A stretch of DNA of 64,000 nt, taken from contig JAKLFA010000003.1 in the NCBI GenBank assembly GCA_022711395.1, positions 162,509-226,508 on the forward strand. The letters run 5' to 3'. The position numbers were made by a program, and so were the translations under genes. This DNA is from Candidatus Omnitrophota bacterium. GTDB taxonomy: Bacteria > Omnitrophota > Gorgyraeia > Zapsychrales > JANLHA01. The stretch's first letter is position 1; each line of letters begins with the position of its first letter. The notes below the pieces were generated by a model. It made no database searches. It was not told where the DNA came from and worked only from the letters and a program-made list of their open reading frames with translations. Below are positions 23,797-53,088 of the stretch, one piece after another.

Positions 23797-26700
23797 CTAC
23801 TCTTCTGTTTCATCGGGAAAACTGCCCGTATTCCCACCCTGCTGCGTGCGGTCCTCAATGAGCTTAAATACCGAAAACATATCAATAGAGCTGCTCCCGG
23901 CTCCCGGGCCCATGGCATAAACGTCGCCCGGGGAAGACGCCCCGGACGCCTCGCCGGAACCCCCGGAAGAAGTTTCCTGCGTTCCATTCACCGCTTGCTG
24001 CAGGCTCGTCAAGGACCTGACCACAGTATCGATGTCCGCGCTGCCTGGAGCAGAGGCGATCGTCAACGTGCCGTTGGCATAATTTACCGCGTATCCCAAT
24101 AAGGACGTGTAGCCGCTGGGCGTGATCGTATACGTTCCAATCGCCATGGCCCCCTGGGACGTGCCTCCATACGACACGCTCCCGCTCAAGGCCTGCGCCG
24201 AGGTGTCGCCGTTTTGAAGGCCGGTCATGCCCACCCCATTCCCTCCGGAATACGCCAGACCGTCATAAGTCTTGCTGTCATTGGAGGCCGTTACCGTAAC
24301 GGCCGGCTGCTCGCGGTAAACCGCGTAATGACCGGCTCCTAAGGCCGTTGAGAAATTTGACGCGCTTTCATCGCTGTTGTATCGGAACTTCCCGCTTCCC
24401 GAGCCGATCAGCGCCGTCAGCCCCGTGCTGTCGCTGACGTCACCGGAATACAATGTCGCCCTCCCGCCTGCGCCGACCGTAACGCTTCCGCCGCTGACAA
24501 TAATATTTCCGCCGGTGGATGTTCCGGCCGCGGTATTTTTTCCGGCATTCAACACAATCGCGGAATTCCCCGTGTTTGTTGTTTCGATGGCCCCGGCCAG
24601 TGTCAAATCCCCTGTCAATGTCGCCGCGCTTACTGTTCCGGTCGAATTGACGGCGGCCAGCGTCATGGCGTTGCTGTCGATAATGCTGATATCATTGCCT
24701 GAAACAACGGACACCGCGCCGGTAAAATCATTGCTGGTATTATTTAGCGTGATCTGTCCCGCCCCCGCCGTTAAACTGGTTGTCCCTCCAATGTCCAGCG
24801 AGCCTGTCCCCGCGATGTTTCCGGTTGAACTCAGCACAAGGGATCCGGTGCCTGTGGAGGCAATGGAACTTCCTGCCGTGCTCAGATTGATGCCGTTCGT
24901 GCCGGTGTCCTTAACGCCGGTGATGGAAATTGTTCCGTTCTGGGAACTGACTGTGCCACCTGATATGGCTGTCCCGTCAGAAGAGCCGTAGGCCTGTCCT
25001 GAGATCGTGATCGTTCCCTCACCTGTCGTCGATACTGTCCCGCCGATATGCACGCCGCGGGCATACTCCACAGCGTTCGAGCCCTGCCCATTGATGATGA
25101 TGTTACCGCCCAACGCGTTGATCGTCCCATTAATCGCGGCCCCGCGCATCAAGGAGTTGGACTCATAACTTGTCAGATTGATCCCCATCGCCCTGGTCGT
25201 TGCGGGAGTGGCCCCGCCCCCGATCGTCACATACCCGCCGTTGGTTTCGATCGATGATCCCGATGAAAGCCAAAATCCTCCAGCCGCCCCCGCACTGCCG
25301 GGATTGATCAAGACGTTTAATTTATTCGAGGTGGAGCTGATCGCACTTGGGTTATTGTTCGCCAGATTGCTTGATAATCCGGAAGCGATATACCCGGATG
25401 AGCTGTCGGCAGTCGTAATATACGAGGTTGCCTTGAGCGTCAGTGTCGCATCTGACCCGCTGGTCTTAGAAATATCGCCATTGACCAATACCCGGCCGTT
25501 GCCGGCCTCGACCGTGAGGTCTTCCACCATCGTGATCGTGTCGGTGATATCGATCTTCGCGTTATTTTTTAATATCGTATCATCATTAAACGTCACCGCT
25601 CCGCCAACAGTAATATCCCCGGCTGTCGCGTTGCCGATCGTGACGCTGGAAAAACCGTTCGCAAAATTCGTTGAAAAATAACTCGCCGCAATATCCAACG
25701 TGCCGGCGCCGGTCGTACCAATATTGATTGCCCGGCTTGTATAGGGTTCGATAGTCAGGGTGCCGCTGCCGGAGATTGTGTGATTGGCGCCAATACTGAG
25801 AAGATTGGTCTTAAGAATCGTGTTCCCCGTCCCGGCATTAAAACTATGGGCATTAGCACCGGCATAGATATCCACATAATTGGGGGACTCTACAGTAATG
25901 TCTCCGCCGTTGGTCGTTGTCATGTTCTGGGAAATTCCAACACCTTTGGCAGTGTTGACTGTGTTGTGGCCATAAAGGGTGATTCCACCCGCCCCAGCGG
26001 TGATACGGGTATATCTCGAGCTAAGCTGCGAACTGGAAAGCCCGTGATAGTTCGTATTTGAACTTGTGCCGCTGATATTCACCGTACCGGCGTTGATGTC
26101 TAAATAACTGCCGGACGGAGCGCCGTCCAACCACGCGGACAACTCGATGCCCGCATAAGAAGAAGACTCTCCGATCATGGTGAGTGTGCCGCTGCCGGCA
26201 TCCAGCGTTCCGCTATGGGAATAATTGATCCCCATCCCTGTTCCGGCGCCGGCCGTGCTTTTACCTTTTATAAAAATATTACCGCCGCCTGATTGAATCG
26301 TTGTCCCGGCTGTCGCCGCATTATTCAATCTTCCTATACTGACCCCGCTGTAAGTAGCGGTTGCTGTCGCAAAACCATCCGGCCTGCCGTCGCTGTTGTC
26401 GTCAGCCCCGCCCGCCATCACAATATCACCGCCGTTGGTGTCAACCACAGTGCCATCGTAAAGAAAAATGTAGCCGTTATTATTCACGTCTGCATCCGCC
26501 CACAAGACCGTATCCAATGCCCCTGTTGAGGATTCAATTGAACTGCCGGCATCCATAATGATCGAGCCGGTTGTTTTCACCGTCAGCGAGGCGTCATTGC
26601 CATAAGCGTTTGTGATGGATTTACTAGCCTGTAAAGTAAAATCCGTCGCTGCATTGGTCTGCGTCAACGTTGTCGCCGCCGCACCCAGCGTGATATCGCC

Positions 26701-29244: not shown

Positions 29245-29260
29245 GGGTCTCTCCTTTTCA

Positions 29261-30979
29261 TTAGAACCAGATTGTGGCCTGGGCCCAAACCCGGCCGCTT
29301 TCATCCTGATTATCAGAATTGTTGTCGAACGCGTCCCGTCCGGGATTCTTTCCCAGCGCGTGAGCATACGAGAACTGCAGGCGATACGATCCCTGCTTTT
29401 CAAAATTCACACCGGCGCCCACGCCGGACAGCCAATAGTGGTTCCGGCCCGAAATATTCGTCACGGAATTGGACCACGTCCCTTCATGGAGCCTCACCTG
29501 GCCGGCATCAACAAAACCCACCAGCTGTGTCTTGAACGCGGTCTTTAAAGGCAGATCGTAGCGGTTTTCAAACGTCAGGATATGGCCCGTGTCACCGGAA
29601 GCCTCTCCGATCGGATACGCGCGCACGCCCGTGGGCCCTCCCAGAATGATTTTTTGTGATGAATCAAGATTTCCGTCGGCGAACTGCCCCCTGGCAGAAA
29701 AGAAGAGCGACGTGTTTTTCGTCGCCCGCTGCAGGCGCGCCAGGGCATACGTTGCCCGTGAAAAATTTCCGCTCACGCGCGCCCCTGAATCATCCCCAGA
29801 GCTCCCATCCGTGATATTCACGCTTCCGGCGTAAAACGACATCAGAGCGCTGGTCAGCCCCCCTCGGAAAAACTCATCATAAAAATTCCCCGTTAAATTC
29901 AGGTTCGCGGCGGAAACGCTGCGGTCACTGGTCACGTCTCCGGCGGATTTGTCTTCCAGCAAATACTGCTCATATCCTGATCCGATCCAGACGCTGGCCC
30001 TTCGTGTCCGCTTGACCGGATACTTAAGGTTCGTCCCGAAGGTGTGAGCGGAACCCTTGGCCTGCAGGTCTTTTAGCTTTCCGCCTAGCTCATAACGCAG
30101 CCCATTATACGAAAAATCCGCGATCGCGCCACGGGACCCGACAGGAAGCGAAAGATCCGCCCGGCCCTGATTCAGATCATCGGCGTTGATGTAGGTCATC
30201 CTCAAAAGATCGCCTTTTCCTAACGAATCAATAAGGGCCACCTGCCCGGTCCGGCGGAATCTGCCGGTATACCGGTTGCCGAAATTGTCGCCTGACACCG
30301 TTGCGGCGACCCACCGCCCTTCCTTGGAAAGCAGCGATAGGCGCGACGTCCCGGGGACCTCTCCTTTATCCAGATAAGCCCTGGCTGAGACGCCGGGAAG
30401 GTCGTTCATCAATAAGACCGCCCGCTCCACATCCTTGAGCATCACGGTCTCGCCTTCGGCAATAGACTGCCTCGCGATCCGTTCAAGAAACGTTTTGTTG
30501 ATCCGGTGATCGCCATCGATCGAAACGCCGACCTTGCCATCCAGGCGCCCCACGCTGACCGCGATGATAACATTTCCTTCGGTCACGTCCTGCTGAGGAA
30601 GATACGCCCGCGCCAGAAGATAGCCTTTCGTTTCTCTTAAATATAGGGTGATCTTCTGCGCCAAGCGCTGCAGGTCAGCGAACGAAACCTCATTCCCCAC
30701 GCAGGGCGCAGCTATCTTCTCAAGCTCTTTCAGGGAAACGACCTTTTCATAGCCTGTAAATTCGAAACTTTTAACGCGGACTTTGATCCCGGGATCGGCG
30801 GTCATCTCCGGGGGAGCTTCGATCTCAGCGGACGAAGACGCCGGCGGTGTTCTTTGAAGATCGACCTGTTCCTGCTGGCGTAATATCGATCCGGAATCCG
30901 GAGGGGCGGCCAAAACAGGAAAACAAAAACTAAAAAGAGAAATTAAAACGGAACAGAGAAGGAGATTTTTTATTTTCAT
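29261..30979 (-). CDS. Two-partner-secretion outer-membrane transporter TpsB (ShlB/FhaC/HecB family, POTRA + Omp85-like barrel).
   Basis: Signal peptide, POTRA-like N-terminal region, and a C-terminal barrel with conserved motif (RAYPIGEASGDTG...). 572 aa. Immediately upstream of tpsA. Confidence 0.85.
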   Translation of the reverse strand: MKIKNLLLCSVLISLFSFCFPVLAAPPDSGSILRQQEQVDLQRTPPASSSAEIEAPPEMTADPGIKVRVKSFEFTGYEKVVSLKELEKIAAPCVGNEVSFADLQRLAQKITLYLRETKGYLLARAYLPQQDVTEGNVIIAVSVGRLDGKVGVSIDGDHRINKTFLERIARQSIAEGETVMLKDVERAVLLMNDLPGVSARAYLDKGEVPGTSRLSLLSKEGRWVAATVSGDNFGNRYTGRFRRTGQVALIDSLGKGDLLRMTYINADDLNQGRADLSLPVGSRGAIADFSYNGLRYELGGKLKDLQAKGSAHTFGTNLKYPVKRTRRASVWIGSGYEQYLLEDKSAGDVTSDRSVSAANLNLTGNFYDEFFRGGLTSALMSFYAGSVNITDGSSGDDSGARVSGNFSRATYALARLQRATKNTSLFFSARGQFADGNLDSSQKIILGGPTGVRAYPIGEASGDTGHILTFENRYDLPLKTAFKTQLVGFVDAGQVRLHEGTWSNSVTNISGRNHYWLSGVGAGVNFEKQGSYRLQFSYAHALGKNPGRDAFDNNSDNQDESGRVWAQATIWF

Positions 30980-31231: not shown

Positions 31232-31290
31232 GGGGCTACCAGTCACAAAAAAACCCGCATCTTTCGATGCGGGTTGTGACTGGTAGCCCC
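31232..31290 (-). terminator. Extended hairpin plus terminator after tRNA-Glu. The inner stem (CCCGCATC-GAAA-GATGCGGG) is followed by a T-run. The 17-bp outer stem pairs the tRNA 3' end (GGGGCTACCAGTCACAA) with an inverted copy.
   Basis: Perfect nested inverted repeats read directly from the sequence. The T7 run follows the inner stem on the minus strand. Confidence 0.55.
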
Positions 31291-31358
31291 AACCGGATTT
31301 GAACCGGTGTTTAAAGACTGAGAATCTTCCGTCCTGGACCAGGCTAGACGATGGGGCC
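31281..31358 (-). tRNA. tRNA-Glu (anticodon CUC), CCA-encoded.
   Basis: Manual cloverleaf. Acceptor GGCCCCA/TGGGGCT; D-arm TCGTCTAG...GGAC, typical of tRNA-Glu; anticodon stem GAAGA/TCTTT; loop TTCTCAG; T-arm ACCGG-TTCAAAT-CCGGT. Confidence 0.8.
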
Positions 31359-31650: not shown

Positions 31651-31668
31651 TAATTGAAGGATATCCAT

Positions 31669-32859
31669 ATGGCCCTTTCCGTGGGGATCGGTTTCAATAA
31701 TGACAAGAACTCAAATCTGGCGGCCGCAGCCGCGATCGAGCAGGCAAAACGCAAGATCCATGTCAACCGCATCGACCTGATCCTGGTTTTGGCTACCCCC
31801 CATTATTCACCGGAAAACATCATACAGGCGATCGGAGACCGCCTTGATTCTCCGCGGGTCATCGGTTGCTCGACCGAAGCTATCATCATTGATCGTGTGA
31901 TCCATAAACGGGGTGTCGCGGTCGCGCTGTTCCACTCCAATCAAATGAAATTTGAGACCGGCTCGGTCCAGCATTTGAACCTGCAGAACCCCCAGCAAGC
32001 TGCCGCATCCCTGATCCATTCCTGCAAATCGGAGTACGGAGAAAAGGAGCGCCGTCTGTTCTTCGTGTTCACGGAAGGCGCCCCCAACAACATCCCGGCC
32101 ATCCATCATCACCTGCGCAAAGAGCTCAAAAACGAACCGGAAATGCCGATCCTGGGGTCTTCCGCCACCAATATGGTCGCTCCTGACAGTTCCTTTCTTT
32201 TTCATAACAATGAAACGGTCAAAAAAGCCGCCACGGTTTTTGTCCTTGGCGGGAAAGCGACCGTCAAGACGGTCACCCGGCACGGCTGGCATCCCATCGG
32301 CCGCCCGAGATTTGTGGATAAGAGCAGCCATCACATCATCCATTCGATCGATGGTCGTCCGGCGATTGAACTCTACAAAACATTTTTTCCCGAGCAATAT
32401 CATTTATTAAAAGACCCTTCTTCTTCGCTGAACCTTTATTATCCTTTGGGCATCGCCAGCGGGAAGCGGGGCACCTTCTTTATCCGAAATATCATAGATG
32501 TCCTTGACGACGGCAGTATCGTCTGCAATGATAATGTGGATTCCGGTTCCCAGGTCCATATCATGCTGGGCAACAAAGATTCCTGCCTGCAGGTCACCAA
32601 AGAAGCCATCCAAGAGTTCAAAGGCTTTTTTTCTGACCAGCCAACAGGCCTGGCCCTGGTCATCGTGTCCGAAAAGCATCACCGGATCCTGGGGCGTTCC
32701 TTTGAACGGGAGCTCGCTTTTGTCAAACGCGCCGCTGGAGAAAATATCCCTGTTTTTGGATTTGTCAGTTACGGAGAGATTTTTGACACGGGAGACGCTT
32801 GCCAGCAGACTCTCAATTCAAGACAAAACAATAATTTAACCTTAATCGGGATAAAATAA
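31669..32859 (+). CDS. FIST-domain sensory protein (FIST_N + FIST_C).
   Basis: Typical FIST N-terminus (MALSVGIGF...) and conserved architecture. Probable start is the ATG at 31669 with an AAGGA RBS; the ORF-track start at 31654 is upstream. First gene of a three-gene signalling operon. Confidence 0.7.
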   Translation: MALSVGIGFNNDKNSNLAAAAAIEQAKRKIHVNRIDLILVLATPHYSPENIIQAIGDRLDSPRVIGCSTEAIIIDRVIHKRGVAVALFHSNQMKFETGSVQHLNLQNPQQAAASLIHSCKSEYGEKERRLFFVFTEGAPNNIPAIHHHLRKELKNEPEMPILGSSATNMVAPDSSFLFHNNETVKKAATVFVLGGKATVKTVTRHGWHPIGRPRFVDKSSHHIIHSIDGRPAIELYKTFFPEQYHLLKDPSSSLNLYYPLGIASGKRGTFFIRNIIDVLDDGSIVCNDNVDSGSQVHIMLGNKDSCLQVTKEAIQEFKGFFSDQPTGLALVIVSEKHHRILGRSFERELAFVKRAAGENIPVFGFVSYGEIFDTGDACQQTLNSRQNNNLTLIGIK

Positions 32860-32867
32860 AATTACCT

Positions 32868-34343
32868 ATGTTGTGGGCCGTTCTGATAACCCTTTTTCTC
32901 TGCCTGATCGCCGGAGGGGCGTTTGTCGCCATTCATCAAAGAAGTAAGATCAACGCCCTTTCTGAGGCGGTCCAGCGGTTCAAGGATTCCTTTGATGAGA
33001 TCGATGAACAGGCCAAGCTGATCATCAAGACCGACCTTGAGCTTAACCGCACCCAGGAGGAACTGGATAAGCGCCTCAAAGGGCTCGACGCTCTTCAGGC
33101 GATCTCACGGCTGGTCAGCACGACTTTGGATGAACATGAGATCTTTGAGCTTCTGGGCGAGCCCCTTGTCGCTGACATGGGCCTGGAACAATATTATTTC
33201 CTGATCCTGAACAGCGAAGGCTCCCTGAATTGCGCCGCCCATCTGGGTTCCACGGCAGAGGAAGCGAAGCGCATCCTCTCTTTGGTCGGAAACAACCTAA
33301 CGCTCATTGACCAGCTCAAAAGCCGGCAGACCATTTCGTCCATTAATGCCACGGATGAAGAGCGCTCTTTTTTCACAAGACACTTAAAAACACGGCATTT
33401 TATCATCACACCGATCATGGCCAAGAACACCATGCTGGGCATTCTGATCGCCACCAGCCATTCGACGACATACGCCGTTTCGGAAGGGGATGAAGAGATC
33501 TCATCGATCCTGGCGGACCAGATCGGCCAGGCCATCCAGAACGCCAGGCTGTTCGAGGAGGTCTATCACTCACGCCAAAAACTGGAGATCATGGTGCAGG
33601 AGCGCACCCGGCAGCTCCAGGAAGCCCTTTCCAACGTCCAGCAGGTCAGTAAAATGAAATCCGAATTTATTTCCGCGGTCTCGCACGAGCTGCGCACCCC
33701 CCTGACCTCGATCAAAGGGTACGCTTCGCTGTTAAGTTCCGGTAAACTGGGCGATATTCCTGACACCGTGCGCCAGCGCCTGGAAAAGATCAATCATCAT
33801 TCCGACAGCCTGGTGCAGCTGATCAACAATCTGCTGGATATTTCCCGTATTGAATCCGGAAAGACCAGCATGAACCGTAAGAAAATGCCGATCGTTCCGG
33901 TCATTGAGAACGTCCAGGACCTTCTCATGCCGCAGCTTAAAGACAAGAACGTCCAGCTTATCATCCAGATCCGTCAGCCCCTTCCGGAGCTTCTGATCGA
34001 CCAAAGCCAGATCGAACGCGTCTTTATCAATCTGGTCGGCAATGCCATCAAATTCACCCCTTCCCAGGGAACGATCACCGTCAGCGGAGAACCCAGGGAA
34101 AGTGACGCGCTCTTTAAGGTCACGGACACCGGGATCGGCCTCAAAGAAGACGAACGCCGCAAGCTGTTCAATGAATTTTACCGTGTCGACAATGAGATCA
34201 ACCAGAACGTGAAAGGCTCAGGCCTCGGCCTTTCCCTGGCGAGGAAGATCATTGAGGCGCATAACGGCCAGATCTGGGTCGAAAGCGTTTACAAAAAAGG
34301 TTCCACCTTCGCCTTCACGATCCCGCTTGATGATCAAAAATAA
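32868..34343 (+). CDS. Sensor histidine kinase with an N-terminal TM helix, coiled coil, GAF domain, HisKA and HATPase_c.
   Basis: H-box (SHELRTPLTSIKGY), N box (NLVGNAIKF), G1 (DTGIGL) and G2 (GSGLGLSLA). A GAF-like region lies between the coiled coil and HisKA. Confidence 0.85.
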   Translation: MLWAVLITLFLCLIAGGAFVAIHQRSKINALSEAVQRFKDSFDEIDEQAKLIIKTDLELNRTQEELDKRLKGLDALQAISRLVSTTLDEHEIFELLGEPLVADMGLEQYYFLILNSEGSLNCAAHLGSTAEEAKRILSLVGNNLTLIDQLKSRQTISSINATDEERSFFTRHLKTRHFIITPIMAKNTMLGILIATSHSTTYAVSEGDEEISSILADQIGQAIQNARLFEEVYHSRQKLEIMVQERTRQLQEALSNVQQVSKMKSEFISAVSHELRTPLTSIKGYASLLSSGKLGDIPDTVRQRLEKINHHSDSLVQLINNLLDISRIESGKTSMNRKKMPIVPVIENVQDLLMPQLKDKNVQLIIQIRQPLPELLIDQSQIERVFINLVGNAIKFTPSQGTITVSGEPRESDALFKVTDTGIGLKEDERRKLFNEFYRVDNEINQNVKGSGLGLSLARKIIEAHNGQIWVESVYKKGSTFAFTIPLDDQK

Positions 34344-36503: not shown

Positions 36504-36720
<217 letters not shown>

Positions 36721-45057: not shown

Positions 45058-48000
45058 TTACGGCGTCTGGCCCAGAAAATGCATGACATTGGCGTGAGGA
45101 AGAACATTGACCACAACTGGTGAGAGCCCGGTCAGCTCTTCTTTCAAGAGCAGCTCCGGCGCATCAAGCGATTCTGTCCAGCGCCGCCATAATTGATCGG
45201 TCACTGCGGAAGTTTCAACATCGATATCCGTAAGATCGATACCACCTGTCGGCGCCCCTTCGCCTGGCAAGACGGCGGAGTTCGTCCCCCTTTCCCCTGT
45301 CCTCCTTCCCCCTTCTGTTTTTTTCGCCTGCTCCGCCAGCGACTGGGCAGCGATCTGCCTCATAAAAAATTTAAATCTTTTTCCATGCGTAAAAATACTT
45401 TCTTCTTTTTCGGAAATAAAGAACACTCCACTCAAATTCTTCAGCCCTCCAGAATCGACCAAATGCTCAAGAAAATGCGCAGCCTCATGAACGACCGTCT
45501 CCGTTGCCTGATGCCGGCCGCTTAAACTTGCTATCCCTTCAGCCAGTGTGTCAGCGTTAAGGTACATGGTCACTTCGCCGGCCATATTAATAGAAAACAG
45601 CCCGCTAAAAGGAAGCCGTTTCCCGCGACCGGAGACGATCTTGACGTCCTGAAGCCCCAAAGGCCCCGCCACCTCCCGCCCGATCCGCAAAAGAGCCTTC
45701 AACGGTTCCGTGCCCGGATCGATCACATGATCTTCAGGGTTAATGCTCTGGCTTTCTTCCATGTCCGCCGCGACCTGGGCCCTTTTTTGAGCATGAGGGT
45801 CATGGGAACGCAGCGATCGTTCATAATCACGTCCTGTTTTTTGAGCGGCCAGACGTGCGCGCCGTTCATCGATCTTGGCCTGGGTCTTGATCCGCCTTTG
45901 CAAATAGCTGTTCACCTGCGGCCGGCCCTGTTCATCCGGAACAAACGCTTCGATCAGGACAAGGACGCGGGTCAGGACATCATCCGTTCGGTCGCAAAGG
46001 TCCCTCATGGATTCCAATCGATCATAATCGAAAGAATCCGCCGCGGCCCCCTTAAAAAGCTCCTGATTGATCTGCCCGATCACATCAAACATGTGGATAT
46101 TCCCGTCCAGCATAAGCCCAGGATTGTTTTGCGGTTCAACCGAGTTCCAATAATGCTCCGCCGGATTGACCTCCCAGTCCCTGGGAACCTCATCTAGCGT
46201 GAATGTTGTCTCCTTGCTTAATCCCCTGGAGACAAGAGCGCGATAGAAAGCGACCGCGACACTCTTTTGGATCTCCGGCAGGACCACATCCTCCTCCATG
46301 AACGAACTGCGGTTCTGGATCAGGCGTAACGGCGCATCAATTTGAATGACCAGCCCGATCTGTTTGGCATACCGCCGCAATTTTTGCGGGACCAGATCAA
46401 GAAAATGTTCTTTTTCTTTCAAGCTGTCGATCCGCAAACCCCGGCGGTCAACGACCTGCATCGGCATATCAGGATCCGCCGTGGCCCATACACGGACAGA
46501 ACCCTCCACGGTCCTTCCTTCGTCAAGAGATCGCACGCGCAATCCCGCTGAGGCCAGAGCCTCTTTTCCTCTGACCGCCAAAACGTCCGCGTCCTGAAGC
46601 GTTCCATCCTCTGCTGCCGGCTTCAAGAACCGGATGTTGAATTCCCCTCCTGCGGACATCCCGGCGTGCATCTTCCAGGCCCTGCGGGCGATCATCTGCT
46701 CAAGTTCCGGCAAACTTTTTCCGGGAGCGCGCATCCGCCGAATCCCAACACCTTTTTTAACAGACGAAGACGGGATCTTGGTGATCTCCACCAGCACGAG
46801 CTTGCGCCGTTCATAATCCACTTCGACATCAAAAACAAAACTCTCAACCCCGTTGTTCATGATGATCTGGACCTGGTCCATGCCGGCATACATCGTGAAT
46901 TTTCCTGTTCCAAAAAATCCGACCACCTGAGAATCCTGCCCGGCCTCCGCCTTATTCGATTGAGGGATCAAAAGCGCCAGGGCCTTGCCCAACGGAGGCC
47001 CGGCCCCGTCATCCCAGATCTCTTCGACATACATCCCGCTGCGCTCATCCACATAATATTCGATCTCAAGGTTCCTGGCGCCGGCATCCGTGGAATTCTG
47101 AGCGATCTCAGCGGCATAGGCCCCCGCCTCCCTCTGGACCTCGACCAATTTAAAGATCTCCTCGGTCAACTTGGCGCTTCCTGTCTGGCGTGAGACCGCT
47201 TCGCTGTTCGCAATAATATCGTCGATCGTATAAAGATCTGTGTCCTGCTCGGCCCTCCTGGGCTTGGAGCGGTTATACATCGCCAACTGGTCCAGCGTCA
47301 CATCGATCGAATGGAACTCTCCCGGAAAGACCTCGATCTTCTTCTTCGCGATCGGCTCCGTGTCGCTGACAAGAAAAACAAAAAAATCATTTAGGATCCC
47401 CAGCGACCCCCTGTCCGCCTCAGGGTCGGTCAACGCACGGAACAATTCATCCTGTTCAAAACCTTCGAATGCCCGGCTCATTTCTTCAATGTAACGAGGA
47501 TATTGGAGCATTTTTTCAAGCTGTCCGGCAAATCTGGCAGGGTCCACCCCTTCCTCATTGACCAGCAACTGCAGTATTTGAACGACCTTGGAAACATGCT
47601 CCGCGCCGCTGCCCTGGATCTTTCCGATCAATGCCTGGACCGGGGCCATGGCTGATAACAACGGTTCGGTCCTCGGATACCATCCATAGGACAGAGCTAA
47701 AAAGAATTCTTCTGTTAGAACCGCTGAATTGACCTCATGATCAGCGCCGGCCAGCGCCATCAATCCGGCAAAGAAATTTCTATAAAGGTCTGCCCGCGCC
47801 TTTCTGCCCTCCTGTTCGAACCGTCCCTGGATCTTCTGCCATACAGTAGACCCGTCGGGAAGAACTCTGTCAAGGGCCTGCACAAAAGCCCCCATGCGTT
47901 CAGCCATTTTGGAAAAAGGCTCATAACCCAACTCCACCGGCTCTCCTCCTTCCGCACGGTCGATCTGCTTCTTAAGCTGTTCCTGGATCCTCCGGCTCTC

Positions 48001-51000
48001 CGATACATAAAGATGAAAAATTCCCGGCGCCATCTCTCTTTGAAGGCGATCCGGAACACGTTCCAAAAGCGGCCCATACACCGCCTGGGCCCGACCGATC
48101 CATTCAGCCCGATGAGCAGCGACAAGCCTATTCCATGCTTCCAGCGTCTTTCCCCCGATCCGGGGCCGGCTGACCGGGGCCCGCCCCAGAACAAAAAGCC
48201 TGGGATCGATAAGGCTCAACCGGTTCATCGCCGTGGCCGGACTTCCATGCTCCTGCTTCCACCTGAAATCGATCGAATCCTTTTCCCCGGAAGGCGGAAC
48301 AAGGGCGGGGGATTTAACGAACTCACTGAACGGGATCTGATACAAGAGCCCGTCCGGGGTCAGCAAAAGATGAACATCTCCGCTCGGTGAATATGTGCGC
48401 TGCTCATCAAGAAGGACGATCGTGAAATACGTTTCCTTGCCTATCGTATGCCTGACCGGCCCCACCAAAGACTTGACCGTGCCCGGAAAGATCTCCGCAG
48501 TCAAAAAATCCTCAAGATTTGCCTCCGCCGCCTGACCGGTCAGCGGATTAAAAAAGATCCTGGCGGCAACGCGGTCATCGATCGAATCGAACTTGACCGG
48601 GATCCGCGCCTGCCCGATGAATTCCAGCTCAAACTCTCCGGGGTCCGCGAGCTCATGGTCCTTCGATTCAGAAATGATCTGCCCATTTTCCCCCATCCGA
48701 AAGAACCTGTACATGCGTCCCTGATAGCCGTTTGAAAGAAGCGATACCGGCTGCATGGAATACTGAATGAACAATCCTCCTCCCAGATGGCGGATGTTTT
48801 CACTGACCGGGGCCGCGACCGTATCTGAAATCTTTTTAGGATTCAATATGAAATCCACGTCTCGAACGCTTCCGTTTTTTTTCTCGATCCCTTCAAAATA
48901 TCTTGGAACAGAAGAGTCGGAATACCCGGAAAAATCTCCCTGATAAATCAGCTTTCCTGTTAATTGATCATAAACGCTGAGCTGCCAATACAGGCCGGGG
49001 TCATCTTGCAGGACCTTGGCGCCGTTCTCGATATCAGAGGGAAGGGCCTCCTGGCTGGCAACAACAAAAACACGATCACCCTCCTTGGCTGTTCCCACAA
49101 GATAGCGTGGACGCCCGCTCATCATGGGCACATCTAAATTGGCGCGGTCTAACGGATCGCGTTTAACGCCAAACACATGGACCGCAATATTGGACCAGGA
49201 CTCTTCACCAATGTAATTCAGATATCCCGCTCCGTTACGCATCATGGAAATTCGTTCGCCTTGCCCGGCAGATTCTCTCATCTGTGTTTGGTCGATAGAA
49301 TGATTTTTACAATCATACGCCCAGACCGTGCCCTGAAACGACTCCCCCGGGATACTCGCATCGTTCACAATAAAGAAACCTGTTTCCGAATCAGGATGTT
49401 CTATCAGCTTCGTTTTCAGGCCATTGGTTTCGATCTTGTTTTTGACCGCTCCGGTTCTGATGTCGATCACGTCCCACGACTGCCTGTCCGAGCCAAAAGG
49501 CTCCCCTATATTTAAGATCGGCGCCATTCCGTCACGCACCACCAGCGTGTTGCCGAACAAATACCTCTCCGAACTAAACCTGTAATTGACAAAAAGGTCC
49601 AGCGGAAAAAATCTATGCGCCTTTTGCTGGTCAGGGTCCACGAATTCATCACGGCTAAAACTCCGGAAGACGATCTCATCCCGCGCGGACTCGACGACAA
49701 CGCCTTTCTCAAAAAAATACGCGTTCCGATGCCGGCCCAAATACTTTCCGGTCTTCTGCGGCCCCCCGGCCTCACTGGATATATAATTGATCATGTCCAC
49801 AAAACTCCCGAACGTCGATTCTTTCTGCCTTGCCAATTCCTTAAGAGAAGGGTTCCTGGCTTCCCCTGCCACGGGCCTGAAGATCTTCACCGAAGGCTCC
49901 TTCAAAAATCCCTCAATGGCCGCGGCATCCGGCCCGACGGGCTGAACATCAGACGGACCCGGCCCCTCCGATCCCCCGGTCTTTTTTTGAAGCCGGCTTC
50001 TCTGTCCTCCCATTTCATAACTTGTCGTCAAATCTTCTTCTTTAGTGATCTGGATGGACAAACGTTCCAGCAGAGATGCCAGACGGATCTGCTCATCATC
50101 AGAAAGCGCTCCGTCGCGTTCTCTTTTTTCTATCAAATCTAAAACCACATCCATCCACTGTTTAGGAACAAGGATCACCGTTCCTGTTTCGATCATCGGG
50201 ATCTGCGCGTCCTTAGCCCCAAGCTGCAATTGTTTCATGCTGTCTTCATTAAAATCAACGGCCATCAACGTCAGTTCGGTCTCGCGCCCGTTCACGCGCT
50301 GCGATACGGAAATGATGTCTTTGGAAACCGCCCTGGCCTGCAGACTTTTTAAGGCCGTTGCGCCGTCCTGCCAGTCAAACAGGAATTCATTCAAATACAC
50401 AGCCGTCACGCCTTGCGGCAAAGCCACCTGCGAGAACTGGACATCGTCCGGGAAGAACAAATATTTCGGATCGCCTGAAAGCTTTAAGACCACCCGCCCG
50501 ATCAGCTCTTTGACCCGGCCCCTCATCATCTGCAGCACCTGTTGATTGTGAGGGTTATCTCCCGCAAGTTCCTGAAGACCGTTAATTAAAGAGTTGATCA
50601 GCCGTAATTTATCGATATCCGTCATCCGGTCCTGCGTGATGCTGAGGATCTGCCTCACCACCTGTTCGATGCCGGCCGCCATCGCCTGCTGCCCGCTCTC
50701 TGAAGACGGAAAAATGATCTTGTCCCGCGCCTGCTGGACCTGCAACAACCGGCCCATTTCAAGCATCAGCCGTCCTTTAAAGATCCCCTGAGGATGGATG
50801 CCGGAAGGGACCTCGATCTCCTTAATGATCTCTCCGTTGCGAGAAAAGGCGACAACGCTGCGTTCCTCCGGCATGTCCTCATGCGCCAAAGCAAGATAAT
50901 CGAGCTCATTCTGAATATGCTCCGCCGTCAGCTGCGAGGCCGCCTGTTTGTCCCCGCCTTCCGCCGGAATGAACATGCGTGATAGCGTCGCGACGTTCAT

Positions 51001-53088
51001 GCCCTTGCCGTTGTCCACGATCCTGATCGAATGGGCGTCCAGCCCGACCCGGATATGGCGCCCTCCGAATGCGTCGCGTTCATCGCCGAAACCGAAGATC
51101 AGCCTGCGGCGGTCCCAGCCGTTGACATGGTCCTTTAGCCCATTCAATTCCAGGTCAATGCGCACATCCCTGACGAACCTGAAGCGGTCCTTGATGGACC
51201 CTGCGATCTGCTCCAGGACGCTGGACCCGTCCGGCGTTTTTTCAGCGGACAGGTCTCGCGCAGCCGAAACCTCCACCACGGTCCCCTGCTCCGCGCTTTC
51301 ACCGGCCTTTGAAAAAAACTCCTGCTCCGTCATCGCAGAGACCTGCACATACCACTGCCCATGGTCGTCACGGACGATCTGAAGATGGTTTGCCGTGCCG
51401 TCCGATGTCTTCGAATACACATCAATACGGTCTCTGCCGCTTTTATCAAGCCAGCTTAAGATCTGCTTAACGCCTTTGCCGAACTGTCCGATCCAGTGAT
51501 CCGAGCTTGCGCGCAACGCGTCGATACTGTTGGCGACCGCCTCCAGGACGCTCTGCGACTTGGCGTTCGCGTTTTGCCCCAGGACCGTCACGTTCAAACG
51601 GGGGTCTTTATAAGCATAACCACCGTCCGATCTGTTGATAAGGTCTACCGTTTCGGCTGAATATCCCCGCCGGGTCAACTCAAGAAGAATGCCGTTATAA
51701 TAAGCGGTCCGGGACCCTGCGGAGAACACATCATCCTCCTCCATGATCCCCAAATGCCGAAGCACGGCCTCAAGCCGCTCGTCATCCAGTTCCCGGTTCG
51801 CCAGGCGCTGCTGCGCGACCAAAAAATGTTCCAGGTCCACGCCTTGAAAAATACCGTCGCTCGATCTGTATTCCGTCGCCTGCAGCCGGGACTTGACCGC
51901 CCTGGCCAGAATATCCTCATCCCCCGCGATCCCAGTGCCCGTCGATGTCCCATCACGATAAAAACGGTAATGCCCGCTCAAAATGGCCGAGTTTCCTTCA
52001 AAACGGATATCGGCAGAAGCCGCCGGAACCTCTTCAATGGCCGGCTTCAAGTTTGTGCTGGAAAACCCGATCCCTCCGGAAAAATATTTTCGCGGAATGA
52101 TCTGCTGACTTAACGGGTCCTCTTCTTCCCGTATATAGTTGTAGACCCCTTTTTTAAATGACGCGACATACTGCTCGTAGATCCTTTGAGAGGCCTCTGG
52201 CTCATCATGCTCAACGCCACGCAGCTTGCCCTTGCTGCCGTAAACGCGCATCAGCATGCTTTCCCGAAGGGTATTCCGGTACCACGTCGCGAGGATCAGC
52301 GCGTAATAGATCTGCCGCAGGCGGGAAAAACTTTTTCCCGCGTTGACTTCCTGCTCAATCGCGGGAAGGATGATCTGCCGGTAAACTTCCTCCGCCTCCG
52401 CCGATATCGGATTTTTTTCCTCAACGCCGTTACTGGTCATGGCCAAATAATCCTTTTCGAGCATGACCTTGAGCCTGGCCTTGCTGATCACGGCTGTCTG
52501 CCCATGGACGGCGACCTGGGCCTTGTCCGGCATGATCCAGACCTTGTGGAAGGTTTCCAAAGGCGCGTCAGATTTTCCGAACTTTTTGGCGATCTGCGAC
52601 CGGACCGTTGACCAGAACTCCTGGCCCAGTTCTTTTTCAGGATATAGCAGCGAAGCGGAAAGCTGTTTCAAAAGATAGTCCTGCGCCAGAAGGTCCCGGC
52701 CCATTTCTGTCTGCCCAAAATCCGGCGCGATGATCCGGTGTTCCTCATAAGGAGACAGGTTGACCCAAAAATCCTCTTCCGGGATCGCCAATCCTGTCAG
52801 GAAAAAACGGATCAACGCCTCCCCTTCTTCTTTCAGTGCCTCCTGAGAAATGTCCTGACTGCCGGTGTCCACAATAAAATTAAATTCAAACGGCTTTTCG
52901 ATATCAAACTGCAGACCCTTTAAAAGTACCGGACTAAACGGCTGGCTGAATGAGACCATTTCCCCGATGACCGGCAAAGCCGGCATAGGTTGGGCCCAAG
53001 AACAGGTAGGATAGATCGAATAAAATACAAAATTTGCCAAAAATAAGCAAAAAAATGATTTTTTTATATACTTTTTTGTGTCGGCCAT
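45058..53088 (-). CDS. Giant 2676-aa exported protein with an N-terminal Sec signal peptide. It carries an N-box/G1/G2 motif set typical of the GHKL/Bergerat ATP-binding fold (aa about 1994-2065), a second degenerate GHKL-like motif set (aa about 515-700) and a C-terminal HExxH zincin-like motif (HEAAHFLEH, aa 2534-2542). Otherwise uncharacterised.
   Basis: Single uninterrupted 8031-nt ORF starting at the ATG at 53088. Signal peptide MADTKKYIKKSFFCLFLANFVFYSIYPTCSWA. Motifs read from the translation (listed under findings). Confidence 0.8.
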   Translation of the reverse strand: MADTKKYIKKSFFCLFLANFVFYSIYPTCSWAQPMPALPVIGEMVSFSQPFSPVLLKGLQFDIEKPFEFNFIVDTGSQDISQEALKEEGEALIRFFLTGLAIPEEDFWVNLSPYEEHRIIAPDFGQTEMGRDLLAQDYLLKQLSASLLYPEKELGQEFWSTVRSQIAKKFGKSDAPLETFHKVWIMPDKAQVAVHGQTAVISKARLKVMLEKDYLAMTSNGVEEKNPISAEAEEVYRQIILPAIEQEVNAGKSFSRLRQIYYALILATWYRNTLRESMLMRVYGSKGKLRGVEHDEPEASQRIYEQYVASFKKGVYNYIREEEDPLSQQIIPRKYFSGGIGFSSTNLKPAIEEVPAASADIRFEGNSAILSGHYRFYRDGTSTGTGIAGDEDILARAVKSRLQATEYRSSDGIFQGVDLEHFLVAQQRLANRELDDERLEAVLRHLGIMEEDDVFSAGSRTAYYNGILLELTRRGYSAETVDLINRSDGGYAYKDPRLNVTVLGQNANAKSQSVLEAVANSIDALRASSDHWIGQFGKGVKQILSWLDKSGRDRIDVYSKTSDGTANHLQIVRDDHGQWYVQVSAMTEQEFFSKAGESAEQGTVVEVSAARDLSAEKTPDGSSVLEQIAGSIKDRFRFVRDVRIDLELNGLKDHVNGWDRRRLIFGFGDERDAFGGRHIRVGLDAHSIRIVDNGKGMNVATLSRMFIPAEGGDKQAASQLTAEHIQNELDYLALAHEDMPEERSVVAFSRNGEIIKEIEVPSGIHPQGIFKGRLMLEMGRLLQVQQARDKIIFPSSESGQQAMAAGIEQVVRQILSITQDRMTDIDKLRLINSLINGLQELAGDNPHNQQVLQMMRGRVKELIGRVVLKLSGDPKYLFFPDDVQFSQVALPQGVTAVYLNEFLFDWQDGATALKSLQARAVSKDIISVSQRVNGRETELTLMAVDFNEDSMKQLQLGAKDAQIPMIETGTVILVPKQWMDVVLDLIEKRERDGALSDDEQIRLASLLERLSIQITKEEDLTTSYEMGGQRSRLQKKTGGSEGPGPSDVQPVGPDAAAIEGFLKEPSVKIFRPVAGEARNPSLKELARQKESTFGSFVDMINYISSEAGGPQKTGKYLGRHRNAYFFEKGVVVESARDEIVFRSFSRDEFVDPDQQKAHRFFPLDLFVNYRFSSERYLFGNTLVVRDGMAPILNIGEPFGSDRQSWDVIDIRTGAVKNKIETNGLKTKLIEHPDSETGFFIVNDASIPGESFQGTVWAYDCKNHSIDQTQMRESAGQGERISMMRNGAGYLNYIGEESWSNIAVHVFGVKRDPLDRANLDVPMMSGRPRYLVGTAKEGDRVFVVASQEALPSDIENGAKVLQDDPGLYWQLSVYDQLTGKLIYQGDFSGYSDSSVPRYFEGIEKKNGSVRDVDFILNPKKISDTVAAPVSENIRHLGGGLFIQYSMQPVSLLSNGYQGRMYRFFRMGENGQIISESKDHELADPGEFELEFIGQARIPVKFDSIDDRVAARIFFNPLTGQAAEANLEDFLTAEIFPGTVKSLVGPVRHTIGKETYFTIVLLDEQRTYSPSGDVHLLLTPDGLLYQIPFSEFVKSPALVPPSGEKDSIDFRWKQEHGSPATAMNRLSLIDPRLFVLGRAPVSRPRIGGKTLEAWNRLVAAHRAEWIGRAQAVYGPLLERVPDRLQREMAPGIFHLYVSESRRIQEQLKKQIDRAEGGEPVELGYEPFSKMAERMGAFVQALDRVLPDGSTVWQKIQGRFEQEGRKARADLYRNFFAGLMALAGADHEVNSAVLTEEFFLALSYGWYPRTEPLLSAMAPVQALIGKIQGSGAEHVSKVVQILQLLVNEEGVDPARFAGQLEKMLQYPRYIEEMSRAFEGFEQDELFRALTDPEADRGSLGILNDFFVFLVSDTEPIAKKKIEVFPGEFHSIDVTLDQLAMYNRSKPRRAEQDTDLYTIDDIIANSEAVSRQTGSAKLTEEIFKLVEVQREAGAYAAEIAQNSTDAGARNLEIEYYVDERSGMYVEEIWDDGAGPPLGKALALLIPQSNKAEAGQDSQVVGFFGTGKFTMYAGMDQVQIIMNNGVESFVFDVEVDYERRKLVLVEITKIPSSSVKKGVGIRRMRAPGKSLPELEQMIARRAWKMHAGMSAGGEFNIRFLKPAAEDGTLQDADVLAVRGKEALASAGLRVRSLDEGRTVEGSVRVWATADPDMPMQVVDRRGLRIDSLKEKEHFLDLVPQKLRRYAKQIGLVIQIDAPLRLIQNRSSFMEEDVVLPEIQKSVAVAFYRALVSRGLSKETTFTLDEVPRDWEVNPAEHYWNSVEPQNNPGLMLDGNIHMFDVIGQINQELFKGAAADSFDYDRLESMRDLCDRTDDVLTRVLVLIEAFVPDEQGRPQVNSYLQRRIKTQAKIDERRARLAAQKTGRDYERSLRSHDPHAQKRAQVAADMEESQSINPEDHVIDPGTEPLKALLRIGREVAGPLGLQDVKIVSGRGKRLPFSGLFSINMAGEVTMYLNADTLAEGIASLSGRHQATETVVHEAAHFLEHLVDSGGLKNLSGVFFISEKEESIFTHGKRFKFFMRQIAAQSLAEQAKKTEGGRRTGERGTNSAVLPGEGAPTGGIDLTDIDVETSAVTDQLWRRWTESLDAPELLLKEELTGLSPVVVNVLPHANVMHFLGQTP

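What the first reader, a model, noticed from the sequence alone, without database searches (positions are those of the whole stretch)
45058..53088. Giant 2676-aa signal-peptide protein combining GHKL-type ATP-binding-fold motifs with a C-terminal HExxH motif
This single 8-kb gene encodes a protein with a Sec-type signal peptide (n-region KKYIKK, 16-residue hydrophobic core, SWA-QP cleavage-like site). It contains one motif set in canonical order and spacing for a Bergerat fold (aa 1994-2065) and a second degenerate set (aa 515-700). Its C-terminal region carries HEAAHFLEH. I know of no characterised family that pairs an exported giant protein with a GHKL module and a zincin motif. The gene is flanked by a TPR lipoprotein gene and is divergent from an SSS transporter, with no secretion-system genes nearby. 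It is the strongest candidate in the window for an undescribed system, possibly a surface or periplasmic ATP- or nucleotide-binding scaffold with protease activity, a polymorphic effector, or a defence or sensor protein.
Basis: partly seen in the sequence, partly recalled or inferred. Interest (0 to 1): 0.85.

Follow-up and report, generated by a model that had tools for sequence, protein, structure and literature searches.

The report
Exported Omnitrophota ATPase–protease mosaic protein
This 8-kb gene from an uncultured Omnitrophota bacterium encodes an exported protein with an Hsp90/MutL-type ATPase and a small zinc-protease-like domain, set between an N-terminal and a C-terminal module that thousands of other large Omnitrophota proteins share and no database describes.

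Summary
ORF 45058-53088 (-) is intact and 2676 aa long, with about 20 colinear homologues.

- **First GHKL set (aa 516-697):** it is conserved, but its motifs run in a non-canonical order (N box, G2, sheet, G1). Its fold is unverified.
- **Signal peptide:** the pattern is conserved across the family (AxA|Q).

The wider context is new. The genome is Omnitrophota.

- Residues 1-346 (signal peptide plus an orphan-fold module) recur at about 50% identity in roughly 2000 large Omnitrophota proteins.
- Those proteins carry very different cargo, such as glycolytic enzymes, kinases, receivers and methyltransferases.
- Most of them also end in a shared C-terminal domain of about 65-75 aa, which is degenerate in this protein.
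- Neither module is in Pfam, NCBIfam, PDB or the papers searched.
- The proteins are cysteine-poor, like secreted proteins.

The cargo here, block A plus block B, is itself a conserved unit found in other contexts. Function is inferred: an exported ATP-driven clamp coupled to a zinc protease. Where it finally acts is unknown.

The parts
45058..53088 (-). Complete ORF, 2676 aa plus stop codon
   Evidence: P0001 is 100% identical over aa 35-2676, and about 20 homologues are colinear.
52993..53088 (-). Sec-type signal peptide, aa 1-32. It has a K-rich n-region, a 16-aa h-region, and SWA|Q.
   Evidence: One search gives the positions. The family-wide pattern is a K/R n-region, a hydrophobic core, then [A/V/S]x[A]|Q just before LPxPG. 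No SignalP run was possible.
52051..52992 (-). Conserved N-module, aa 33-346, of orphan fold. It is shared by about 2000 large Omnitrophota proteins.
51682..52050 (-). Poorly conserved linker, aa 347-469
   Evidence: Conservation drops after the FSGG motif. No family hit.
49864..51681 (-). Block A, aa 470-1075. A GHKL-related region with motifs out of the usual order: N box E516/N520/D523, GQFGxG 534-539, GT 602-603, then D692xG694xG696-M and a PxxGxK motif.
   Evidence: Invariant residues in alignment A3. Profile against PDB: HtpG G1 segment at E=5.8e-4, and the GyrB sheet after G2 at E=0.03-0.06. HATPase_c matches aa 676-711 at E=0.086. The fold was not modelled.
48232..49863 (-). Variable spacer, aa 1076-1619. 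This position holds a beta-propeller in some homologues.
   Evidence: Not aligned in homologues. No Pfam or PDB hit. WD40/Kelch domains occupy this position in P0195 and P0011.
47134..48231 (-). Block B lead-in, aa 1620-1985, weakly conserved
   Evidence: Conserved only within the subfamily. No family hit.
46213..47133 (-). GHL-type ATPase, aa 1986-2292. It comprises a Bergerat ATP-binding domain (E1994, N1998, D2001; D2026xGxG2030; S2044/K2046; G2057xxGxG2062, T2065) and a transducer-like domain.
45679..46212 (-). Helical connector, aa 2293-2470
   Evidence: AF2 secondary structure with pLDDT 70-90. Conserved in the subfamily.
45304..45678 (-). Zincin-like minimal metallopeptidase domain, aa 2471-2595. 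It carries H2534-E2535-xx-H2538 and H2568 (F2572).
45070..45252 (-). Divergent copy of the family-wide C-terminal domain, aa 2613-2673: GGIDL...GLSPVVVNVLP...LG
   Evidence: The family consensus is vGGIDLNPanLdLQikrdGkGiPLP..qPl..i.idGFvPVIINItPVtNLPlLLG. The domain alone scores about 85 bits in thousands of proteins. The query scores only 10.9 bits, at the same C-terminal position.

Best explanation
**Architecture (shown).** The gene encodes a member of a large family of modular proteins found almost only in Omnitrophota. Its parts, in order:
1. A Sec signal peptide with a conserved AxA|Q site.
2. A roughly 310-aa N-module with no recognisable fold.
3. Interchangeable cargo.
4. A roughly 65-75-aa C-terminal domain, degenerate in this protein.

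**Cargo (shown).** The cargo here is an evolutionarily conserved two-part unit.
- Block A is a GHKL-related region with rearranged motifs.
- A variable spacer follows.
- Block B is a canonical Hsp90/MutL/MORC-type ATPase with its transducer domain, a helical connector, and a minimal zincin of the HtpX/projannalysin type.

**Mechanism (inferred).**
- The signal peptide sends the whole 2640-aa chain across the cytoplasmic membrane. There are no further transmembrane segments, and cysteine is depleted about ten-fold, as in secreted proteins.
- The shared N- and C-modules act as family-wide handles for sorting, anchoring or onward delivery.
- The cargo works as a nucleotide-driven clamp, with the GHL ATPase closing on ATP as in Hsp90 or MutL, that positions or gates a zinc endopeptidase acting on protein substrates.
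- The family's cargo is mostly ATP-, NAD- or SAM-dependent enzymes of cytoplasmic type. I therefore favour action in a nucleotide-containing compartment outside the producer's cytoplasm, meaning on or in a partner or prey cell. This step is untested.

**Confidence by step.** About 0.9 for the architecture and family membership. About 0.7 for export. About 0.4 for the clamp-plus-protease mechanism. About 0.3 for action in a partner cell.
For: **Taxon.** PyrG is 100% identical to an NCBI Omnitrophota MAG protein.

**Family and N-module.**
- 1962 homologues were found, and aa 5-345 recurs at about 50% identity with very different Pfam content.
- At least 584 loci occur in GTDB species genomes, nearly all Omnitrophota, with several per genome.

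**Signal peptide and export.**
- The signal-peptide pattern is conserved.
- The Kyte-Doolittle hydropathy scan found no further transmembrane segment.
- Cysteine is 0.15% in the query and 0.08% at the family median. Housekeeping proteins in the window have 1.1-2.3%, and the secreted TpsA has 0.11%.
- The same contrast holds in three other genomes.

**C-domain.**
- 118 of 136 N-module proteins also carry the C-domain.
- The domain alone scores about 85 bits in thousands of proteins.

**Cargo unit.** Blocks A and B co-occur in the same order in proteins with other N-termini and in proteins without a signal peptide.

**Published context.** Omnitrophota are reported as ultra-small and possibly predatory or parasitic, with long signal-peptide or transmembrane proteins rich in HATPase and metabolic domains.
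Against: - No signal-peptide predictor or experiment was available, so cleavage and localisation rest on sequence rules.
- An exported ATPase has no obvious ATP supply. This is the weakest link.
- The query's h-region is only moderately hydrophobic and its C-domain is degenerate.
- The N-module model is of medium quality (pLDDT 67.8), so 'orphan fold' could reflect model error.
- The block A fold was not modelled.
- Pfam scores are below gathering thresholds (24.7 against 25 for HATPase_c_3; 13.7-16.1 against 25.6 for SprT-like).
- No conserved neighbouring gene points to a transport or maturation machine.
- Protease and ATPase activities are untested.
Confidence: 0.55

Rival explanations
1. 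The protein is a resident of the cell envelope or surface coat. It stays in the producer's periplasm or on its surface, anchored through the N- and/or C-modules. The GHKL domains bind nucleotide or another ligand without turnover, or are structural, while the zincin processes envelope or surface proteins.
For: - It has a signal peptide and no other transmembrane segment.
- The C-domain contains a hydrophobic PVIINItPV..LPlLLG stretch that could dock into a membrane or partner.
- The family also includes M48 peptidase fusions.
Against: - All catalytic GHKL residues, including the general-base Glu and the Mg-binding Asn, are invariant. That argues for real ATP chemistry.
- The family's cargo is dominated by cofactor-dependent cytoplasmic enzymes, which would be idle in a periplasm.
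Confidence: 0.25
2. The protein faces the cytoplasm. The N-terminal hydrophobic stretch would be an uncleaved tether or not a membrane signal at all, and the family would be membrane-proximal multi-enzyme scaffolds working inside the cell.
For: - The cargo domains need ATP, NAD or SAM.
- A 2026 preprint reads many long Omnitrophota proteins as membrane-anchored with cytoplasmic domains.
- JGI called the gene from M35, without the signal peptide.
Against: - The positively charged n-region ahead of the single hydrophobic segment predicts an N-in, C-out orientation.
- An AxA|Q site is conserved just before the first conserved motif.
- Cysteine is depleted about ten-fold relative to cytoplasmic neighbours in four genomes.
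Confidence: 0.12
3. The gene is an anti-phage or conflict system, with a MORC/sacsin-like GHKL sensor coupled to a protease effector.
Against: - PADLOC gives no match.
- The neighbours are housekeeping genes (purF, carAB, gltBD, nadE) and are not conserved.
- There is no partner gene.
- The signal peptide and family context point elsewhere.
Confidence: 0.04
4. The ORF is an artefact: an assembly chimera, a fused ORF or a decaying pseudogene.
For: The contig comes from a metagenome. The gene is unusually long, and its C-domain is degenerate.
Against: - The frame is uninterrupted over 8 kb with uniform composition.
- An identical protein is recorded independently (P0001).
- Twenty homologues are colinear over both blocks and both termini.
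- The catalytic residues are invariant.
Confidence: 0.02

Closest known systems
Hsp90 family (GRP94, TRAP1, HtpG) N-terminal plus middle domains
   Different: Sequence identity is about 11-13%, and the Pfam HSP90 family does not match. No Hsp90 C-terminal dimerisation domain was identified. The domain is embedded in an exported 2676-aa mosaic and followed by a zincin.
MutL/MLH1, MORC2/3, SMCHD1 and sacsin SR1 (GHL ATPases)
   Different: The sacsin model scores 24.2 bits against a cutoff of 50, so this is not a member. No endonuclease, CW, HEPN or DnaJ modules are present. Blocks A and B are not clear repeats of each other (hhalign probability 22%).
Minigluzincins and M48 peptidases (projannalysin 4jix, HtpX 3cqb)
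   Different: No Pfam peptidase family passes threshold. The candidate third ligand is His2568 rather than the Glu of classical gluzincins. The domain is soluble and fused to an ATPase.
Secreted-protein families with a constant sorting module and variable cargo (TpsA TPS domain, T9SS C-terminal domain, polymorphic toxins)
   Same: A signal peptide plus conserved terminal modules flank highly variable cargo. There are many paralogues per genome, and cysteine is depleted as in the window's own TpsA.
   Different: The N- and C-modules match none of these families in Pfam or NCBIfam. Both ends are conserved at once. No dedicated transporter or immunity gene lies nearby. The cargo consists of metabolic and signalling enzymes, not toxins.
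Giant proteins of Omnitrophota (West-Roberts 2023 preprint; Seymour 2023; 2026 preprint 10.64898/2026.06.07.730766)
   Same: They come from the same phylum. They are long proteins with signal peptides or transmembrane helices, and HATPase_c, methyltransferase, phosphoglucomutase and receiver domains are listed among their commonest content. Block A plus block B also occurs inside proteins of 4-7.7 kaa.
   Different: Those studies treat proteins of 10 kaa and above (20 kb ORFs), with SecA-DEAD, C39 or dockerin classes and T2SS or pilus neighbours. In the text I could search, they do not mention the shared N-module, the C-domain or the A/B unit.

Membership tests
GHKL / Bergerat-fold ATPase superfamily (block B, aa 1986-2150) | N box (ExxxNxxD), G1 box (DxGxG) and G2 box (GxxGxG) in that order with normal spacing | tested here: met
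   E1994/N1998/D2001, D2026xG2028xG2030 and G2057xxG2060xG2062 are all invariant in 12 homologues.
GHKL / Bergerat-fold ATPase superfamily (block B) | Predicted Bergerat fold | tested here: met
GHKL / Bergerat-fold ATPase superfamily (block B) | Score above the curated Pfam threshold | tested here: inconclusive
   HATPase_c_3 scores 24.7 bits against a cutoff of 25 in the query. Five of 12 homologues match, best E=1.4e-6.
GHKL / Bergerat-fold ATPase superfamily (block B) | ATP binding and hydrolysis | not testable with these tools
   This needs purified protein.
GHL subgroup (GyrB/Hsp90/MutL/MORC) | Transducer (ribosomal S5 domain 2-like) domain directly after the ATP-binding domain | tested here: met
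GHKL superfamily (block A, aa 516-712) | Canonical order of the N, G1 and G2 boxes | tested here: not met
   The order is N box (516-524), GQFGxG (534-539), sheet with GT (602-603), then DxGxGM (692-697).
GHKL superfamily (block A) | Bergerat fold | not tested
Only marginal profile hits exist (HtpG E=5.8e-4, GyrB E=0.03-0.06).
Hsp90 family proper | Match to the HSP90 family model and a C-terminal dimerisation domain | tested here: not met
   Pfam HSP90 gives no hit at E<=1. Only the N and middle domains align.
Sacsin N-terminal ATP-binding domain (NF047352) | Score above the curated cutoff | tested here: not met
   24.2 bits against a cutoff of 50.
Zincin metallopeptidases | HExxH on a helix preceded by a beta-sheet | tested here: met
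   H2534-E-x-x-H2538 is invariant. The model shows strands at 522-552 and then helix 563-586.
Zincin metallopeptidases | Third zinc ligand downstream | tested here: inconclusive
   Invariant H2568 at the start of the next helix is the candidate. Metal binding was not tested.
Zincin metallopeptidases | Membership of a curated peptidase family (SprT-like, M48 and others) | tested here: not met
Sec signal peptide (SPase I type) | Positive n-region, hydrophobic h-region of 10-20 aa, and small residues at -3 and -1 | tested here: met
   KKYIKK, then a 16-aa core, then S-W-A|Q. The family-wide pattern is xYAQ, ARAQ or AQAQ. This is a rule-based check only; no SignalP run.
Lipoprotein (SPase II) | Lipobox L-[AS]-[GA]-C | tested here: not met
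   In the query, C29 is preceded by Y-P-T. Most of the family N-termini listed have no Cys in the signal region.
Known C-terminal sorting signals (T9SS CTD, PEP-CTERM, LPXTG and others) | Match to the curated models | tested here: not met
   Four typical C-domains gave no NCBIfam hit and no Pfam hit to any sorting-signal family; one of the four had only chance-level Pfam hits (COMM_domain E=0.006, Aconitase_2_N E=0.07, both below cutoff).
Polymorphic toxin / effector systems | Constant trafficking end, variable toxin end, and an adjacent immunity gene | tested here: not met
   Constant ends and a variable middle are present. However, the cargo is not toxin-like, and 80 loci share no recurrent neighbour.
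Anti-phage defence systems | Match to PADLOC models or a defence-island context | tested here: not met
   PADLOC gives no hit. The context is housekeeping genes.

The most novel reading that the evidence does not exclude
The shared signal peptide, N-module and C-terminal domain may mark cargo of a previously unrecognised, Omnitrophota-specific protein sorting or delivery route. These ultra-small, probably predatory or parasitic bacteria would use it to export dozens of large proteins per genome. The exported set includes whole blocks of glycolytic, nucleotide-sugar and signalling enzymes as well as this ATPase-protease, and the destination would be the surface or the interior of partner cells. 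The present protein could be the route's chaperone-protease member.
Probability: 0.25. Interest if true: 0.9.

Novelty: new variant of a known kind. Interest (0 to 1): 0.66.

Why it matters
**For this gene.** It shows an Hsp90/MutL-type ATPase fused to a minimal zincin, paired with a second GHKL-like region whose motifs are rearranged. This conserved machine has not been described and gives a direct target for biochemistry.

**For the phylum.**
- The gene exposes a family-wide N-terminal module and C-terminal domain. Together with a signal peptide and cysteine depletion, they tag thousands of large Omnitrophota proteins that carry enzymes normally confined to the cytoplasm.
- If these tags define an export or delivery route, they would give a concrete, testable handle on how uncultured nanobacteria interact with or exploit other cells.
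- They would also help explain why this phylum builds so many very long proteins.
- The two modules can be turned into profile models now, to annotate what are currently 'hypothetical proteins'.

Tried and rejected
- Aligning 52 full-length family proteins failed inside the tool. I used trimmed fragments instead.
- A word-indexed homology search with block B alone returned only one protein, because the prefilter was swamped. The exhaustive profile search replaced it.
- The AFDB fold library was not available.
- Blocks A and B are not clear internal repeats in the sacsin manner. hhalign gives 22% probability.
- The defence reading is rejected. PADLOC found nothing and the context is housekeeping.
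- The repeat-adhesin reading is rejected. There are no tandem repeats, and the full-length Pfam and NCBIfam scans returned no adhesin family.
- The conserved-operon idea, including the TPR neighbour, is rejected. Three orthologous loci and 80 family loci share no neighbour.
- A link to the nearby TpsA/TpsB pair is rejected. The protein has no TPS domain and is 14 kb away.
- Low cysteine in the homologue without a signal peptide (P0193) is uninformative, because its whole low-GC genome is cysteine-poor.
- The taxon of that homologue could not be established.
- Literature searches for the motif strings and for an Omnitrophota N-terminal module found nothing relevant.
- The V. archaeovorus proteomics paper is not held in the library.
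- The spacer aa 1076-1619 has no detectable family.
Full report
**1. The observation**

The minus-strand ORF at 45058..53088 is real and uninterrupted: 2676 codons starting at ATG. Its composition matches its neighbours and it has no tandem repeats. An identical protein is on record from a JGI metagenome, called from M35 (P0001). About twenty homologues of 2.3-4.5 kaa are colinear with it, so an assembly chimera or decayed gene is very unlikely.

The window belongs to an Omnitrophota genome. Its CTP synthase is 100% identical to an NCBI 'Candidatus Omnitrophota bacterium' MAG protein, and nearly all named close relatives are Omnitrophota; one 90%-identical hit on a 3-kb contig is labelled Geobacteraceae.

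**2. Anatomy**

BLAST mapping of 120 homologues, alignments and local HMMs divide the protein as follows.

- **aa 1-32:** signal peptide.
- **aa 33-346:** a very strongly conserved N-module.
- **aa 347-469:** a linker.
- **aa 470-1075:** block A.
- **aa 1076-1619:** a non-conserved spacer.
- **aa 1620-2600:** block B.
- **aa 2613-2673:** a short C-terminal domain.

**3. Block B: a GHL ATPase followed by a zincin**

- *Family scans.* Pfam HATPase_c_3 and the NCBIfam sacsin N-domain match aa 1992-2076 at E about 3e-5, just under or well under their cutoffs.
- *Profile against PDB.* A 12-sequence profile hits 81 PDB sequences, all Hsp90-family N-domains. The best is E=1.2e-5, and the match runs from the N box through G1, the SxK lid motif, G2 and the next strand.
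- *Invariant residues.* The catalytic and nucleotide-binding residues are invariant: E1994, N1998, D2001, D2026, G2028, G2030, S2044, K2046, G2057, G2060, G2062 and T2065.
- *Conclusion for the ATPase.* This is a GyrB/Hsp90/MutL-type ATPase with a transducer domain, not a kinase-type domain.

**4. Block A is conserved but rearranged**

- *Invariant residues.* E516, N520 and D523 form an Hsp90-like N box. G534-Q-F-G-x-G539 is an Hsp90-like G2 box only ten residues later. G602-T603 follow, then D692-x-G-x-G-M697 and P708..G712-x-K.
- *Profile against PDB.* The G1 segment matches HtpG (E=5.8e-4). The stretch between G2 and G1 matches the GyrB sheet after G2 (E=0.03-0.06).
- *Order.* The order is therefore N, G2, sheet, G1. 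This is not a simple circular permutation of the canonical N, G1, G2, sheet.
- *Age and limits.* The same order is kept in distant homologues, so it is ancient and under selection. Calling it a functional ATP site remains an inference.
- *Relation to block B.* Blocks A and B are at best remote relatives of each other (hhalign probability 22%).

**5. Blocks A and B form a mobile unit**

An exhaustive profile search found about 100 cluster representatives with the whole of block B.

- Every one I checked also has block A upstream, separated by 600-1800 variable residues. That spacer is a WD40/Kelch propeller in some.
- The unit occurs in three settings:
  - in proteins with the query-type N-module;
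  - inside Omnitrophota proteins of 3-7.7 kaa with other signal-peptide-like N-termini;
  - in proteins of 1.7-2.1 kaa with no signal peptide, N-module or C-domain.

**6. The family-wide termini**

- *Distribution of the N-module.* It recurs at 45-51% identity in nearly all of 1962 database hits. These are proteins of 1.5-4.5 kaa from Omnitrophota. It also occurs in at least 584 loci of GTDB species genomes, several per genome. Some of those MAGs are labelled Planctomycetales or Lysobacterales by their submitters.
- *Cargo in other members.* Precomputed Pfam content includes:
  - triose-phosphate isomerase, GAPDH, PGK, enolase, phosphoglucomutase and PEP-utilising enzymes;
  - malate synthase/isocitrate lyase, UDP-glucose pyrophosphorylase and NDK;
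  - response regulators, GGDEF, Ser/Thr kinases, UbiB and M48 peptidases;
  - methyltransferases, GNAT, SNF2, WD40, HEAT and LysM.
- *Signal peptide.* The N-termini share a K/R-rich start, a hydrophobic core of about 18 residues, and [A/V/S]-x-A|Q a few residues before the invariant LPxPG motif.
- *C-domain.* Most members end in a conserved domain with the consensus vGGIDLNPanLdLQikrdGkGiPLP..qPl..i.idGFvPVIINItPVtNLPlLLG, followed by a 12-61-aa tail. Of 136 N-module proteins in hand, 118 carry it. On its own it scores about 85 bits in thousands of proteins. The query's copy is degenerate, scoring 10.9 bits, but lies in the same place.
- *No database record.* Neither module is in Pfam-A, NCBIfam or PDB sequences.
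- *No literature record.* Searches for the motif strings, and of three Omnitrophota giant-protein papers, found no description.

**7. Localisation**

- *Hydropathy.* The hydropathy scan finds no second transmembrane segment in the query.
- *Cysteine in the query.* The query has four cysteines in 2676 residues, two of them in the signal peptide (0.15%).
- *Cysteine comparison.* The family median is 0.08%. Seven housekeeping proteins of the same window have 1.1-2.3%, and the window's secreted TpsA has 0.11%. Three orthologues show the same contrast with their neighbours.
- *Reading.* Together with the conserved cleavage-type site, this supports export across the cytoplasmic membrane. It is not proof.

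**8. Genomic context**

- The neighbours are purF, carB, carA and a small TPR protein on one side. On the other are a divergent SSS transporter, gltD, gltB and nadE.
- The neighbours of three orthologues are unrelated housekeeping genes.
- Across 80 family loci, no gene recurs next to the family.
- PADLOC gives nothing.
- The gene therefore stands alone, and the defence-island and operon readings fail.

**9. Mechanism**

*Shown.* The protein has a signal-peptide-bearing modular architecture. It contains a bona fide GHL ATPase with intact catalytic residues, a zincin-like domain with intact ligands, and a conserved A/B unit, and it belongs to the N/C-tagged family.

*Inferred from knowledge of GHL ATPases.* In Hsp90, MutL and MORC, ATP closes a lid and drives N-terminal dimerisation, and the transducer domain senses the gamma-phosphate. 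By analogy, the cargo is a nucleotide-driven clamp. With the fused zincin, it plausibly holds and cleaves protein substrates.

*Inferred from the family.* The N- and C-modules are sorting, anchoring or delivery handles. Much of the family's cargo needs ATP, NAD, SAM or acetyl-CoA. I therefore lean towards action in a nucleotide-containing compartment outside the producer's cytoplasm, such as a partner or prey cell. This fits the proposed predatory or parasitic lifestyle of the phylum. An envelope-resident role is nearly as likely, and a cytoplasmic role is not excluded.

**10. Comparison and novelty**

- *Known kinds.* The components are a Sec signal peptide, a GHL ATPase and a zincin. However, the protein fails the curated thresholds of every named family. 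See the membership table.
- *Not described in what I could search.* The ATPase-zincin fusion, its pairing with a rearranged GHKL-like block, and above all the two family-wide terminal modules.
- *Rating.* I rate the finding a new variant of a known kind.
- *Chance of something larger.* There is a substantial chance (about 0.25) that the N/C cassette marks a new sorting or delivery system.

Noticed in passing
window 23797-30979 (-): This is a two-partner secretion pair. A 1868-aa TpsA-like protein carries a TPS domain (E=4e-35) and DUF5649 repeats. Upstream lies a 572-aa TpsB (POTRA_2 + ShlB). The two ORFs overlap as listed. TpsA has only 0.11% Cys.
   Followed up: partly
window 49864-51681 (-), aa 516-712: In block A the GHKL-type motifs are invariant but ordered N box, G2, sheet, G1. 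No simple circular permutation of the Bergerat fold produces that order. Distant homologues without a signal peptide keep the same order.
   Followed up: partly
P0189-P0213; L085:4324-9852: A group of 1.7-2.1-kaa proteins carries block A, a WD40/Kelch propeller and block B, ending right after the zincin. They have no signal peptide, N-module or C-domain. One sits in a 30.5% GC genome of unknown taxon (GCA_037445105.1) among housekeeping genes.
   Followed up: partly
P0022-P0120: Family members fuse the N-module to several enzymes of central carbon metabolism: TIM, GAPDH, PGK, enolase, PGM, PPDK, PEPCK and malate synthase/isocitrate lyase. I did not check whether the genomes also keep stand-alone copies.
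   Followed up: no
window 52987-53088 (-): JGI's gene call for the identical protein starts at M35 and drops the signal peptide. No clear Shine-Dalgarno sequence precedes either ATG, and the upstream region is very AT-rich.
   Followed up: partly
L008, L012, L017-L022 and others; P0264: Many contigs carrying the Omnitrophota-specific N-module are deposited as 'uncultured Planctomycetales', 'Lysobacterales' or 'bacterium'. A 90%-identical PyrG is labelled Geobacteraceae. These are probably mislabelled or mis-binned Omnitrophota sequences.
   Followed up: no
L001-L080: In 19 of 80 loci a long antisense ORF of about 160 aa overlaps the conserved N-module coding region. This is probably a by-product of the conserved sequence rather than a gene. 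Eighty loci yielded 105 N-module ORFs, so some loci hold tandem paralogues or split genes.
   Followed up: no
window 21077-22861 (-), 31654-34343 (+): Two sensor histidine kinases (Cache-HAMP-PAS-HisKA-HATPase_c and GAF-HisKA-HATPase_c) and a FIST-domain protein flank the TpsAB pair. tRNA-Glu (31281-31358) and tRNA-Leu (36504-36585) lie nearby.
   Followed up: no
   Followed up: yes
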